From Squalus acanthias (lineage: Eukaryota): 64,000 nucleotides of DNA. This document shows positions 60,200 to 64,000 of the stretch, in pieces (positions within the stretch are counted from its first letter, which is position 1; each line of letters opens with the position of its first letter). Location of the stretch: the NCBI GenBank assembly GCA_030390025.1, contig CM059437.1, forward strand, positions 77,686,001 to 77,750,000, written 5' to 3'. The notes beneath the pieces are model-generated. The model worked only from the letters and a program-made list of their open reading frames with translations, did no database searches and was not told where the DNA came from. Position numbers and translations under genes: made by a program.

Positions 60200-62536
60200 A
60201 ATGATGAAGTTGATAGAGATCATGGGGCCCTGGTAGACTTGACATTCAACACATCCAACCACTGCAGAGCAGTATCAACAAAGCAAATAGAATGTTGAAC
60301 TACATAGCCAGAACAGGAGAGCATAAGTCAGAGTAAGCCATGCTCATGCTCAGACTACATAATGCTCTGGTCAGAATAAATTGATCACCCAGGCACAAAG
60401 AAGATATTCCAGTACTTCATAGAAGAGCCACAAAGCTAAACCTTAGGCCGCGATTTCACGGACCGGGGTCGGTAGCGCGGTCCCAGCCCGCTGCCTACCG
60501 CAGCCTGCACTCTCCAAATGATTTTACATTAATAGGGCTTGTTAAGTCCGCCCTGCGAGGTTCCCGGCCAATTAATAGGAAGCGGGTCTGATGACGTCAT
60601 TTGATGACGCGTCATCAGCCAGTTTCCTTAAAGGGGCCATGTCCAAATTTACTTTGACAGTTGTGCGGTCAGTGCTCTACAGCATTGAGCTGCAGCAAAC
60701 ACTGACAATCACTGCACAAAGGTGCACGACTGCACCCAAGCTCTCCCTCCATATACTTATGGAGGGAGTCACAGCACGCAGGGAGGTTTTCTTCCCTTCT
60801 CATGGGCGGAAGACACCTCCCCAGGAGATCAACGCAGCCTGGTTGCACAGGAGGGCACAAGCAGGGATGTTGTCAGGGGGACCAGGTTGCAGTGGCGCAA
60901 ACCTTTCAATGATCTGAGTAGATCACGAATCGTTACTGCCAAGCCACACTCAACCTCATCCTGCTTGTGCCACTCATCACATCCCCATCACTCTGCCTTC
61001 CCTACCCTACTCCTGCACATCCTTACTCACGCCAACTTACCTTGCACCTCCACCCATCTCTCTCTCTCTACATTATCACTTCCCCATCTCACTAGTCACC
61101 CCTCACACTCACCCTCATCCTACTGCAAGCATATGAACTAACAACACACAAGGGTAGGCACTTGGGTGGTTTAGCCAATATTCATGTGAAGTTTCTGTTA
61201 ATGTGTTGTCAAACATTAAAGTCTATATTTTCAACACTTTACCTTATTGGACAGATCTGTGCTCACCTTTGGAAGTGTCTTAGTGAGTTCCATTGAATGT
61301 TGAGACATAACTTCCCCCCACCCCACCATCCCCCCCCCCCCCCCACTCCAGTTGTGAGGAGTGTGAAAGGAATGGCTTGGACATTGTAGGGATGCTTTAT
61401 GGTGTTGGTGTGGAGTGGTGTCAACCTGGCGCAATCATGTGGCAGCCAGGGTGTTCAGCGTCAAGTGAAGTAAATCTGGCCATGGTGATGCCATCGCTGG
61501 CCTCTTGGGCAGCAATGTTGTCGGGTGCTGGTGCCCCGTGTCCTGTGCAGCATCAGATGATTGCGGAGAAGGTTGGTATTGTTGTTGGTGATGTTGGTGC
61601 TGGGGATTCAGAGGACCAAGGTGAGATTTTTTCAAGGGCACTGATGTTGCTGGAATAGATGGCAGCTGAAGTTGAAATGGCAGGAGCAATCTGTCAATGG
61701 TGGGAGAGCTTGCTCCAAGGAGGTGACAGTGGATAGAAAGTTTACTCCAAACACTTCCAAACTGCATACAGCTCAAAAGTGTCTTCCAAGTCCTGAAGGC
61801 TCAAGCTTCTGACATTGGAAAGTGACTAGCTGTGAAATGGTAGATTTCATACCACTTTTGCAGCTGTCACTGATTCACAGCAATGGGGAGACATAGAGAA
61901 CTCGACCTACTTACCTGATGAGATCTCCAAACAACGTGAACCTCGTTAAAAAAGTGGTAAAATAGAAATAGGCTGACAAAATAGTAGTTAACAAGCATTT
62001 AACTCTCATAAATGCCTCCCCGCCGCTTGGTGTCGGGTCTGTTCTGAAATCGTAGACCCGGCACTTTGGAAACTTACATGGAGGCGGGTTCGGAGCGGGC
62101 TCCCAACCCGCTGTGAATTATTTCGATTTTGACAGCGGACCCGCCTCCATACCCGCCCTCTGAGCGCAGGCAAAATCGTGGCCTTAGTGTCAGCAGATTG
62201 CGATATGAGGAAAAGCTGGAGAAATTGGGCTTTTCAGGCTCAAAAGGAGGCAATTGATGAATGACCTTATGAATCTATATGAGGATAAATGATATGGAAG
62301 AGATGGAGCTAAAAAAATACTTTAGACTACATTGTGAGTCGGGCAAGAAGATAACAATTCAACTTAGTTGAAGGCAAATTTAGGCCTGATGTCAGAAGCT
62401 CTTCACACACAGCATGATCAACGCATGGAATGGACTTCCAGATAGAACAGTGGAGGCAAAAACCCAAGGATTATTTGAGAAAAAGCCACAATAGGGAGAC
62501 TATAGGTTCTTTCTGGATGAGTGAATGAAAATAAGC
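60200..62536 (+). mobile_element. Decayed CR1 3' portion, split by a Harbinger element (60446-62183)
   Basis: AACAAAGCAAATAGAATGTTG...AATGCTCTGGTCAGA...AGAAGAGCCACAAAGCT resumes after the insertion as GATATGAGGAAAAGCTGGAGAAATTGGGCTTTTC...CTTCACACACAG...GCATGGAATGGACTTCCA. Confidence 0.75.
60446..62183. mobile_element. PIF/Harbinger deletion derivative with Myb/SANT-like gene remnant
   Basis: Terminal inverted repeats GGCCGCGATTT / AAATCGTGGCC with TTA duplication (60443-60445, 62184-62186). On +, ~60720-60925 gives broken APKLS...LMEGVTARREVFFP..GRK...AAWL...SRDVVRGTRLQWRKPFNDL, a Myb/SANT-like DNA-binding motif typical of Harbinger elements. Confidence 0.85.
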
Positions 62537-62730
62537 TGTGGTAACACAATACAGCTTCCTGTGACTCGAACTTTATTGCATCACTTCCTGTGATTAGTCC
62601 AGGATAAATACTGGACTGATCAGTTGGATCCTGGAGAGGCATAGAGTAAGACCTCTTTTGTATGTAGCACCTTTTTAGTTGATTAAAGCTTACTTTAAGT
62701 TCACCACGCGTAAGGCTCATTCTTACGACA
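62537..62730 (+). mobile_element. Putative 5' LTR of a Ty3/Gypsy element (194 bp)
   Basis: Begins TGTGGTAA and ends TTACGACA (imperfect terminal inverted repeat, TG...CA). Contains TATA-like GATAAATA and ATTAAA, interrupts the CR1 tail, and lies 78 nt before the gag ATG. The second LTR is outside the window. Confidence 0.75.
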
Positions 62731-62808
62731 ATTTAATCAACTTTGGAAAACTTCGCACTCAAACTTTTTGGACGAACTCGGAACTAAGGATCCAGGGAAT
62801 CACCCATC

Positions 62809-64000
62809 ATGGAAAACATCCTTAAACCATCGCGTCTTGACTTGGACCCAAACACCCCAGCAGCCGGTAAGGTGTGGAAACACTGGTATCGCATGTTTGA
62901 CAATTTTCTGGAATATTGTAAGGCTGATGATGACTCAAAGTTGCGGCTACTCATCAACTGTGTCACCCCAAATGTATTTCAGTATGTGGAGGAATGGGAC
63001 AGTTACGAGGAGGCAATTCAGAAGCTTAAGAGACTATATACTAAGACACCGAATGAGGTCTATGCCAGACATCTACTTGCTACAGCCCAACAAGGGCCGG
63101 AGGAATCCATTGATAAATTCCTCCAAGAGCTTCGCAGACTTAGTATGGACTGTAACTTTCGGGCGGCCTCAGCTGAGCTGTACCGTGAAGAAATGATCCG
63201 TGATGCTTTCATCTGCGGGCTTGCCTCCCCATTTATACGCCAGCGTCTACTGGAAAGTAAGACACTTGAGCTTCAGAGAGCTTATGACATGGCTTGCTCT
63301 CTAGATCTGGCAAAAAGAAATACAGACCTTTATACAGTGCCCAGACCTCGGTCTACTGCCTTAACTACAGTCAGGCAATTTAAGAGGCCACAGGTGAACT
63401 CTATTAGGGAGGTCTTTATCCCTGACGATCAATCTGATGACTTCACTGATGAAGAGGATGATGACCCCACTGTGGCAGCCTCTTGGCAATCTAAGAAATG
63501 CTTCTTTTGTGGTGATGAGTTCCACCCTCGGAAATTCTGCCCTGCTCGCAATGCGTTTTGCAGTCATTGCAACAAAAAGGGTCATTTTGCAAAGGTTTGC
63601 CTATCAAGAGCCTCTACGAGGGCTTATCAAGCTAAGTCCTACCGAACTGCTCCGGTAAGGGCCTATCAAGATGTTCCGGCTAAAATCTATCGTGCTTCCT
63701 CTCGAAGAAACACACCTAGAGTTTCAGCCACGACACCAATTACAGCTGCTTGTCCTCAGAACCTATTCCATGCAGCTACAAAAGCATCAATTAATGGACA
63801 TACTTTAGATGCCTTAATTGACTCAGGTAGCACTGATAGTTTCATTAGGGAACAGATTGTTGCAGAGTTAAAGCTACATGTTTTCCCATCGGACCAGGCA
63901 GTTGCGATGGCTCAGTCATCACTTAATACCAGAATTTCTGGCTTTTGTATGGTTGAAATAACACTTAATGGTCGCAGGTATCCCTCCACCCGGCTTTCGG
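62809..64000 (+). CDS. Ty3/Gypsy Gag-Pol polyprotein, N-terminal part (runs off the window)
   Basis: Hand-translated 397 codons with no stop: MENILKPSRLDLDPN...WKHW...YARHLLAT...IRDAFICGL...IRQRLLE; two CCHC knuckles CFFCGDEFHPRKFC and CSHCNKKGHFAKVC; aspartic protease ALIDSGSTDSF in the same frame. Missing from the ORF track because it has no stop in the window. Confidence 0.95.
   Translation, partial: MENILKPSRLDLDPNTPAAGKVWKHWYRMFDNFLEYCKADDDSKLRLLINCVTPNVFQYVEEWDSYEEAIQKLKRLYTKTPNEVYARHLLATAQQGPEESIDKFLQELRRLSMDCNFRAASAELYREEMIRDAFICGLASPFIRQRLLESKTLELQRAYDMACSLDLAKRNTDLYTVPRPRSTALTTVRQFKRPQVNSIREVFIPDDQSDDFTDEEDDDPTVAASWQSKKCFFCGDEFHPRKFCPARNAFCSHCNKKGHFAKVCLSRASTRAYQAKSYRTAPVRAYQDVPAKIYRASSRRNTPRVSATTPITAACPQNLFHAATKASINGHTLDALIDSGSTDSFIREQIVAELKLHVFPSDQAVAMAQSSLNTRISGFCMVEITLNGRRYPSTRLS

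What the first reader, a model, noticed from the sequence alone, without database searches (positions are those of the whole stretch)
62677..62742. Intact Gypsy element with no tRNA primer site but an 11-nt LTR/PBS complement: candidate self-priming retrotransposon
Seen: directly after the LTR end (..ACA, 62730) there is no TGG-type tRNA primer-binding site. Instead TTTAATCAACT (62732-62742) is the exact reverse complement of AGTTGATTAAA inside the LTR (62677-62687). A further hairpin CGTAAG/CTTACG (62709-62727) lies between them, and the A at 62677 sits in an Inr-like TTAGT context. Established: fission-yeast Tf1 primes reverse transcription with the first 11 nt of its own mRNA annealed to the PBS, released by RNase H cleavage. 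Inference: this element starts transcription at about 62677 and self-primes. Its two-knuckle Gag does not look like a Tf1-type Gag, so this could be an independent use of the mechanism. I cannot verify whether this is already described for this clade.
Basis: partly seen in the sequence, partly recalled or inferred. Interest (0 to 1): 0.72.

Follow-up and report, generated by a model that had tools for sequence, protein, structure and literature searches.

The report
Self-priming Gypsy clade with mapped nick
This young, intact jumping gene and its relatives in many animals carry, where a host tRNA normally docks, a short sequence that pairs with the element's own end-repeat, so they likely start copying themselves with a cut piece of their own RNA.

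Summary
Confirmed. This is a full-length, young Ty3/gypsy element: identical 194-nt LTRs, a 5-bp target duplication, one Gag-Pol frame and no chromodomain. The 11-nt LTR/PBS complement is real and belongs to the whole clade. 42 of 50 related loci have a perfect stem of 10 bp or more at this place. In 21 anchored rows with 15 different 11-mers, 227 of 231 positions pair Watson-Crick. No TGG site was found in 30 two-LTR loci. Aberrant genomic copies add more. In 19 fold-backs the LTR arm is extended across U5 from the PBS. Six of nine jump junctions fall one base inside the duplex end, which points to a nick at 62686/62687 and a 2-nt spacer (inferred). The proposed start at 62677 is unsupported; footprints suggest RNA starts 12-19 nt further upstream. 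The clade lies outside the plant and algal chromoviruses; Tf1/sushi were not in the tree. Best reading: Tf1-like self-priming, probably of separate origin. Nine literature searches found no description for this clade, but Repbase/GyDB could not be searched. This scan noted the same thing before, in this genome and others.

The parts
62532..62536 (+). left target-site duplication (5 bp; repeated after the 3' LTR at L001:4993-4997)
62537..62730 (+). 5' LTR, 194 nt, TG...CA, identical to the 3' LTR (L001:4799-4992, beyond the window)
62603..62610 (+). TATA-like box in U3 (two sister families have a canonical TATA box in U3); use as a promoter is inferred
   Evidence: sequence
62658..62660 (+). 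left end of two 5'-truncated copies of this family, one with a 5-bp target duplication; candidate RNA 5' end (inferred, weak)
62677..62687 (+). LTR arm complementary to the primer site; holds a poly(A)-signal variant at 62682-62687; inferred primer 3' end at 62686
62686..62687 (+). inferred nick between these two bases; 62687 is the inferred 5' end of the cut template, where minus-strand strong-stop DNA would end
   Evidence: junction copies L208/L220, L213, L214, L241, L230, L231
62688..62700 (+). short helix starting directly after the arm; the base after the arm is paired in the predicted loop fold in 16 of 21 rows
62709..62727 (+).
62731..62732 (+). inferred 2-nt spacer between the LTR end and the primer 3' end, mirrored by two A bases between the polypurine tract and the 3' LTR
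62732..62742 (+). primer-binding site, perfect complement of 62677-62687, no TGG
62809..64000 (+). start of a single 1308-aa Gag-Pol frame (two zinc knuckles, PR-RT-RH-IN; runs to L001:4735); no chromodomain or env by Pfam

Best explanation
This is an intact young Ty3/gypsy retrotransposon whose primer site is a perfect complement of a stretch of its own LTR, and it likely primes reverse transcription with a piece of its own RNA released by an inferred nick at 62686/62687. Shown: the pairing, its co-variation across the clade, the absence of a TGG site, and genomic copies in which the arm has been extended across U5 from the primer site. Inferred, by analogy with Tf1: the 5' part of the transcript folds back over a 44-nt loop, and the element's RNase H nicks the duplex one base inside its end. 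The upstream piece then primes minus-strand DNA two bases outside the LTR, and the downstream piece is copied up to 62687 before strand transfer. The plus strand would copy the primer into the next primer site, which would keep arm and site matched by Watson-Crick pairs without wobble. The RNA start is not determined and is probably 12-19 nt upstream of the arm.
For: Co-variation: 42 of 50 loci with a Gag start have a perfect stem of at least 10 bp at this place. 25 of 30 two-LTR loci reach 11-15 nt against shuffled means of about 5. In 21 anchored rows, 227 of 231 positions are Watson-Crick, 1 is G-U and 3 mismatch; there are 15 distinct 11-mers; mismatched family pairs average 8.2 of 11; 0 of 10,000 permutations reach the observed sum. 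Two within-family double changes: L004 vs L011, and a subfamily in which 21 of 21 copies with a changed arm base also carry the changed PBS base, 20 of them Watson-Crick (one event). A second Gypsy family in the same genome has an ordinary TGG site. Fold-backs: 17 copies in two sister families and 2 in this family join U3 plus arm to inverted U5; at least 10 have exact 5-bp target duplications; the reciprocal junction was found 0 times in one family. Nick: 6 of 9 jump events rejoin R one base before the arm end. Two of them (L230, L231, this family) join it without overlap to the LTR start plus its two extra A bases. Tf1 precedent: passage in PMC7175516.
Against: No RNA 5' ends were seen: the only raw-read run gave 0 reads, and contigs cannot show starts. 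Fold-backs can also arise by template switching at any perfect inverted repeat, so they show extension from the arm but not which molecule supplied it. Of the 9 jump events, 1 is ambiguous and 2 rejoin 3 and 6-7 bases upstream. The L230-type junction was not found in the two sister families (0 of 5 hits were elements). 8 of 50 loci lack a 10-bp stem; most are decayed, but L062 looks intact and pairs only 8 bp. The 21 rows were anchored on stems already found. Stems run to 13-18 bp in many families, longer than Tf1's 11. Five subfamily copies carry an extra arm base in the 3' LTR only, which the simple model does not explain. Four copies carry a G-U change in the PBS that was not corrected.
Confidence: 0.66

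Rival explanations
1. Self-priming, but the primer is the arm in the 3' R region (of the same or a second packaged RNA), nicked at the same bond, so that minus-strand DNA starts covalently on the genome's 3' part.
For: Some fold-backs read as LTR, PBS, then inverted U3, polypurine tract and internal sequence (L207, L218, L219), which is what copying a long 3' primer would give. The arm holds the poly(A)-signal variant. Footprints suggest the RNA start is not at the arm. An earlier agent read it this way (e1-7857552; its footprints were not rechecked).
Against: If the 5' arm is transcribed, it lies 44 nt from the PBS and pairs with predicted probability 0.68-1.00 in local folds, against a 4-kb reach for the 3' arm. 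Strong-stop ends one base before the arm end are expected directly if the 5' template is cut. Pairing stops co-varying at position 13 in one family (of 15 copies with C in the arm, 11 have G and 4 have A in the PBS).
Confidence: 0.2
2. The duplex is regulatory: it hides the poly(A) signal of the 5' LTR, and priming uses something else.
For: The arm contains a poly(A)-signal variant here and in many relatives, and the complement exists only at the 5' end.
Against: In L002 and L007 the arm has no canonical signal and a hexamer lies downstream, outside the duplex, yet the pairing is perfect. The complement starts at a fixed place, two bases after the LTR end, in the anchored rows. Wobble pairs are nearly absent, which is unusual for a purely structural stem. 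No other primer site exists. Occlusion may still be a side benefit.
Confidence: 0.09
3. A host tRNA, tRNA half or other small RNA primes, and the LTR match is incidental.
For: Only 4 tRNA isotype classes (17 distinct sequences) could be collected, so tRNA fragments were not excluded directly. Half-tRNA priming exists in some copia lineages (PMC6317226 passages).
Against: No TGG in 30 of 30 two-LTR loci. Fifteen different primer sites each match their own LTR. No tested tRNA matched at the primer position.
Confidence: 0.03

Closest known systems
Tf1/Tf2 of Schizosaccharomyces pombe and Tj1 of S. japonicus (self-primed Ty3/gypsy elements)
   Same: PBS complementary to about 11 nt of the element's own LTR, no tRNA site, release of the primer by a cut (Tf1: RNase H between bases 11 and 12; passages of PMC7175516 and PMC4600332).
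   Different: No chromodomain, a two-knuckle Gag and a very different RT. The inferred cut lies one base inside the duplex. The RNA start is probably upstream of the paired stretch. Stems reach 13-18 bp in many families.
Tf1/sushi group and Tcn1 clade of chromoviruses (fungi, vertebrates, mosses)
   Same: Self-priming described or predicted from the same kind of LTR/PBS complement. The criterion used in PMC6317226 (at least 10 bp starting 0-5 bp after the LTR) is met here.
   Different: This clade lies outside a 100/99-supported group of nine algal and plant chromovirus-like RTs, on a long branch, at about 30-34% RT identity. Tf1 and sushi themselves were not available for the tree.
TAR lineage, Houba and Osr-1 (plant Ty1/copia), predicted self-primers
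   Same: Self-priming predicted from complementarity, outside the chromoviruses (PMC6317226 passages), so more than one origin is already proposed.
   Different: Copia superfamily and plant hosts; here the domain order is gypsy and the hosts are animals.
Mag-lineage and MolGy clades of animal Ty3/gypsy elements
   Same: Compact non-chromovirus elements of marine animals. A two-knuckle Gag as a Mag trait is recalled, not tested.
   Different: The clade could not be named: no reference sequences could be compared. PMC6238403 has no mention of PBS in its main text, and its readable supplements gave no match to the RT motif searched.

Membership tests
Ty3/gypsy LTR retrotransposon | PR-RT-RH-IN order in pol | tested here: met
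   closest solved RT is Ty3
Ty3/gypsy LTR retrotransposon | two LTRs with TG...CA ends, polypurine tract, target duplication | tested here: met
Self-primed LTR elements (works like Tf1) | no tRNA-type PBS | tested here: met
   no TGG in 30 of 30 loci; the tRNA-fragment test covered only 4 isotype classes
Self-primed LTR elements (works like Tf1) | PBS complementary to own LTR over at least 10 nt, starting 0-5 nt after the LTR | tested here: met
Self-primed LTR elements (works like Tf1) | paired stretch is the very 5' end of the mRNA | tested here: inconclusive
   no RNA ends seen; junction footprints suggest starts 12-19 nt upstream
Self-primed LTR elements (works like Tf1) | a cut at the 3' end of the paired stretch releases the primer | tested here: inconclusive
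   6 of 9 jump junctions fall one base before the arm end; indirect
Self-primed LTR elements (works like Tf1) | cut made by the element's RNase H | not testable with these tools
   needs biochemistry
Tf1/sushi group (chromoviruses) | chromodomain on integrase | tested here: not met
   no PF00385 hit at E up to 0.1; none listed among the precomputed domains of the 120 homologues shown
Tf1/sushi group (chromoviruses) | RT nested within chromoviruses | tested here: not met
   nine chromovirus-like RTs form one side of a 100/99 branch without this clade; Tf1 and sushi absent, deeper order unresolved, no AU test run
Mag lineage / named MolGy clade | RT groups with Mag, SURL, Gulliver or MolGy references | not testable with these tools
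   no reference sequences held; supplement searches empty

The most novel reading that the evidence does not exclude
A widespread animal Gypsy clade evolved tRNA-free self-priming apart from Tf1/sushi and does it differently. The RNA starts upstream of the paired stretch and is nicked inside the duplex, ten bases into the arm, so that the primer ends exactly two bases outside the LTR. The genome holds fossil reverse-transcription intermediates that map that nick to the base.
Probability: 0.45. Interest if true: 0.72.

Novelty: new variant of a known kind. Interest (0 to 1): 0.57.

Why it matters
Self-priming has been shown experimentally in Tf1 and otherwise predicted mostly for chromoviruses and one plant copia lineage. 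A large non-chromovirus clade that does it, with homologues in crustaceans, cnidarians, a nematode and a flatworm (source names), would make loss of tRNA dependence a repeated event. Such elements would lack the tRNA site that 3' tRNA fragments use to silence LTR elements (PMC7472051 passage). The junction copies give an exact, testable prediction for the cut site and spacer. Annotation pipelines that require a tRNA PBS would score these elements as defective.

Tried and rejected
RNA evidence: 16 runs listed, 4 laid. The raw-read run and the metatranscriptome gave 0 records; the two contig runs cannot show starts. The viral contig scan found no relative. Single-copy arm variants as a test of automatic compensation: in 9 of 9 with a 3' LTR recovered, the 3' LTR lacked the variant and the PBS was not compensated, so these are post-insertion changes and uninformative. 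The idea that the two LTRs of a copy routinely come from different templates was rejected for one family: 27 pairs agree at most upstream U3 sites, with 0-3 discordant against 8-18 expected. Truncations upstream of the arm in a sister family: of 11 hits, 2 are insertions of other DNA into U3 and most others are small indels, so they were not counted as start-site evidence. The same truncation scan was not completed for the third family, so its start site is open. The tRNA collection covered only 4 isotype classes. Clade naming through papers, supplements and the protein atlas failed. The last homologue search returned algal and plant chromoviruses only, no Tf1 or sushi. The primary Levin papers, the Tf1/Tf2 review and one schistosome paper were not held. 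The first tree was a quick one with unresolved outgroups and was replaced.

Full report
The element. The window ends inside it, so I took the next 8 kb from the genome. It spans window 62537 to L001:4992 (4,456 nt). It has two identical 194-nt LTRs, the same 5-bp duplication on both sides, a polypurine tract followed by two A bases before the 3' LTR, and one 1308-aa frame. Pfam gives protease, RT, RNase H and integrase in gypsy order, and no chromodomain or env. Gag has two zinc knuckles. The family is young and abundant: 3,030 first-look candidates, and the 40 scored are 98-100% identical. The 11-nt match exceeds all 300 LTR shuffles (mean 4.8, maximum 10).

Relatives. A homologue search gave 255 proteins at E up to 1e-50, of which 120 were listed at 46-67% identity. 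The few with source names come from shrimp, woodlouse, anthozoans, a nematode and a fluke. DNA came from 80 metagenome loci and 20 stretches of the own genome, which holds two further families of the clade. Fifty loci had a Gag start with at least 120 nt upstream. Of these, 42 have a perfect stem of 10-18 bp between the LTR and the sequence just after it, and 8 do not. Four of the 8 are decayed copies with partial matches (L071, L072, L076, and L047, which matches 16 nt in its 3' LTR). Three have no recognisable LTR at that place (L024, L064, L068). L062 looks intact but pairs only 8 bp. Among 34 loci with a direct repeat, 4 were dropped because no LTR end could be set. 25 of the remaining 30 match 11-15 nt, and none has TGG in the first 8 nt (the script set the end of L008 wrongly).

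Co-variation. I anchored 21 rows, one or two per family, on stems found, so this set is selected. Over the last 11 arm positions, 227 of 231 are Watson-Crick, one is G-U and three mismatch. There are 15 different 11-mers. Arms against other rows' sites average 8.2 of 11, and no permutation in 10,000 reaches the true sum. The site starts two bases after the LTR end, and the tenth base from the arm end is G in all 21. Changes on both sides occur within families: L004 vs L011, and a subfamily of 21 copies (one event). Beyond 12 bp the pairing is not maintained in one family. A helix starting right after the arm is predicted in 16 of 21 loops, whereas the terminal U5 hairpin is patchy, and the loops fold no better than shuffles (median z 0.07). 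As a control, another Gypsy family of the same genome has an ordinary TGG primer site (my label CsRN1-like rests on recalled motifs). The direct tRNA comparison was thin, with 4 isotype classes and no match at the primer position, but fifteen different sites that each match their own LTR cannot plausibly all be tRNA sites.

Fossil intermediates. There were 17 hits in the two sister families and 2 in this family, and none for the reciprocal junction in one family (a somewhat longer pattern). None of them is a simple inversion between the arms. Six are single LTRs with about 20-28 nt of inverted U5 inserted right after the arm; two of them look like one event. Six carry a complete or near-complete inverted LTR, and five end 22 nt upstream of the arm end. 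At least ten have exact 5-bp target duplications. Adding L241, L258, L230 and L231 gives nine jump events back into R. Six rejoin one base before the arm end, one is ambiguous between that base and the next, and two rejoin 3 and 6-7 bases upstream. L230 and L231, from this family, join that base with no overlap to the inverted LTR start plus its two extra A bases, as if two natural DNA ends had been joined. In L241 the arm was extended from an internal look-alike of the primer site after its tenth base. I infer a template end at 62687, a primer 3' end at 62686 pairing with 62733, and a 2-nt spacer matching the 2-nt extension at the other end. This is indirect. Template switching at an inverted repeat gives some of the same products, and the L230-type junction was not found in the sister families.

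Start site. No RNA ends could be seen. Five independent insertions in a sister family stop 22 nt upstream of the arm end, which would put an RNA end about 12 nt before the arm. Two copies of this family begin at the equivalents of 62658-62660, one with a clean target duplication. Integrase needs a CA near the end (established knowledge), which biases what survives. A TATA-like box at 62603-62610 would predict a start further upstream still. So a start at 62677 is unsupported, though not excluded.

Descent. In a 25-row RT-RNase H tree, nine members of this clade form one side of a 100/100 branch and nine algal and plant chromovirus-like proteins form one side of a 100/99 branch. The order among these and seven other gypsy RTs is unresolved. 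PMC6317226 (passages) places Tf1/sushi, with Tcn1, among the chromoviruses, so the element is not a member by the two features tested. A sister position or an old shared origin of self-priming is not excluded, since Tf1, sushi and Mag were not in the tree and no AU test was run. I could not name the clade.

Literature. Nine searches listed no paper describing self-priming for this clade; most listed papers were seen only as listings. Seen as passages only: PMC6317226, PMC7175516, PMC4600332, PMC3601003, PMC7472051, PMC6934838, PMC6238403 and PMC13524379. Supplements were searched by term for PMC6238403 (one scanned PDF unreadable), PMC8556966 (file 2 only; two FASTA files unreadable and possibly able to name the clade), PMC2577118 and PMC13524379. 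The primary Tf1 papers were not held. Repbase and GyDB could not be searched. I recall, without a call, that Repbase notes mention self-priming for some Gypsy families, so prior description is possible. This scan has reported the same reading many times, in this genome and others. Those notes are not counted as support.

Verdict. This is a real, clade-wide feature. Self-priming with the element's own RNA is very likely (about 0.85 summed over the 5' and 3' versions). The Tf1-like 5' version with a nick at 62686/62687 is the best single model (0.66). It is a new variant of a known mechanism in a lineage where I found no description of it.

Noticed in passing
L001:4717-4767 (just beyond the window, before the 3' LTR): A second purine tract plus the first 40 nt of the LTR is duplicated upstream of the true polypurine tract; other copies share it, and L229, L232 and L257 carry a further such duplication.
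   Followed up: partly
L246-L250: Five separate insertions of one subfamily have an extra base in the arm of the 3' LTR only, and some U3 differences also lean the same way between 5' and 3' LTRs. Standard reverse transcription gives identical LTRs; unexplained.
   Followed up: partly
L206, L211, L212, L215, L216, L217, L221: Short (about 250-390 bp) hairpin-like LTR pieces, most with 5-bp target duplications; five use a cryptic end inside U3.
   Followed up: partly
L143-L154: An abundant second Gypsy family with a TGG-type primer site and about 31% RT identity; used as control.
   Followed up: partly
L062:1325-1525: A clade member at 61% identity whose post-LTR sequence pairs only 8 bp and lacks the usual arm ending; possibly a different priming arrangement.
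   Followed up: no
L001:596-730 (contigs of runs X1 and X3): A second LTR variant with about ten differences, including one base inserted just before the arm that could lengthen the duplex to 12 bp.
   Followed up: no
L004, L005, L011, L037: In this family the Gag start codon lies only 3 nt after the primer site, so the duplex sits against the translation start.
   Followed up: no
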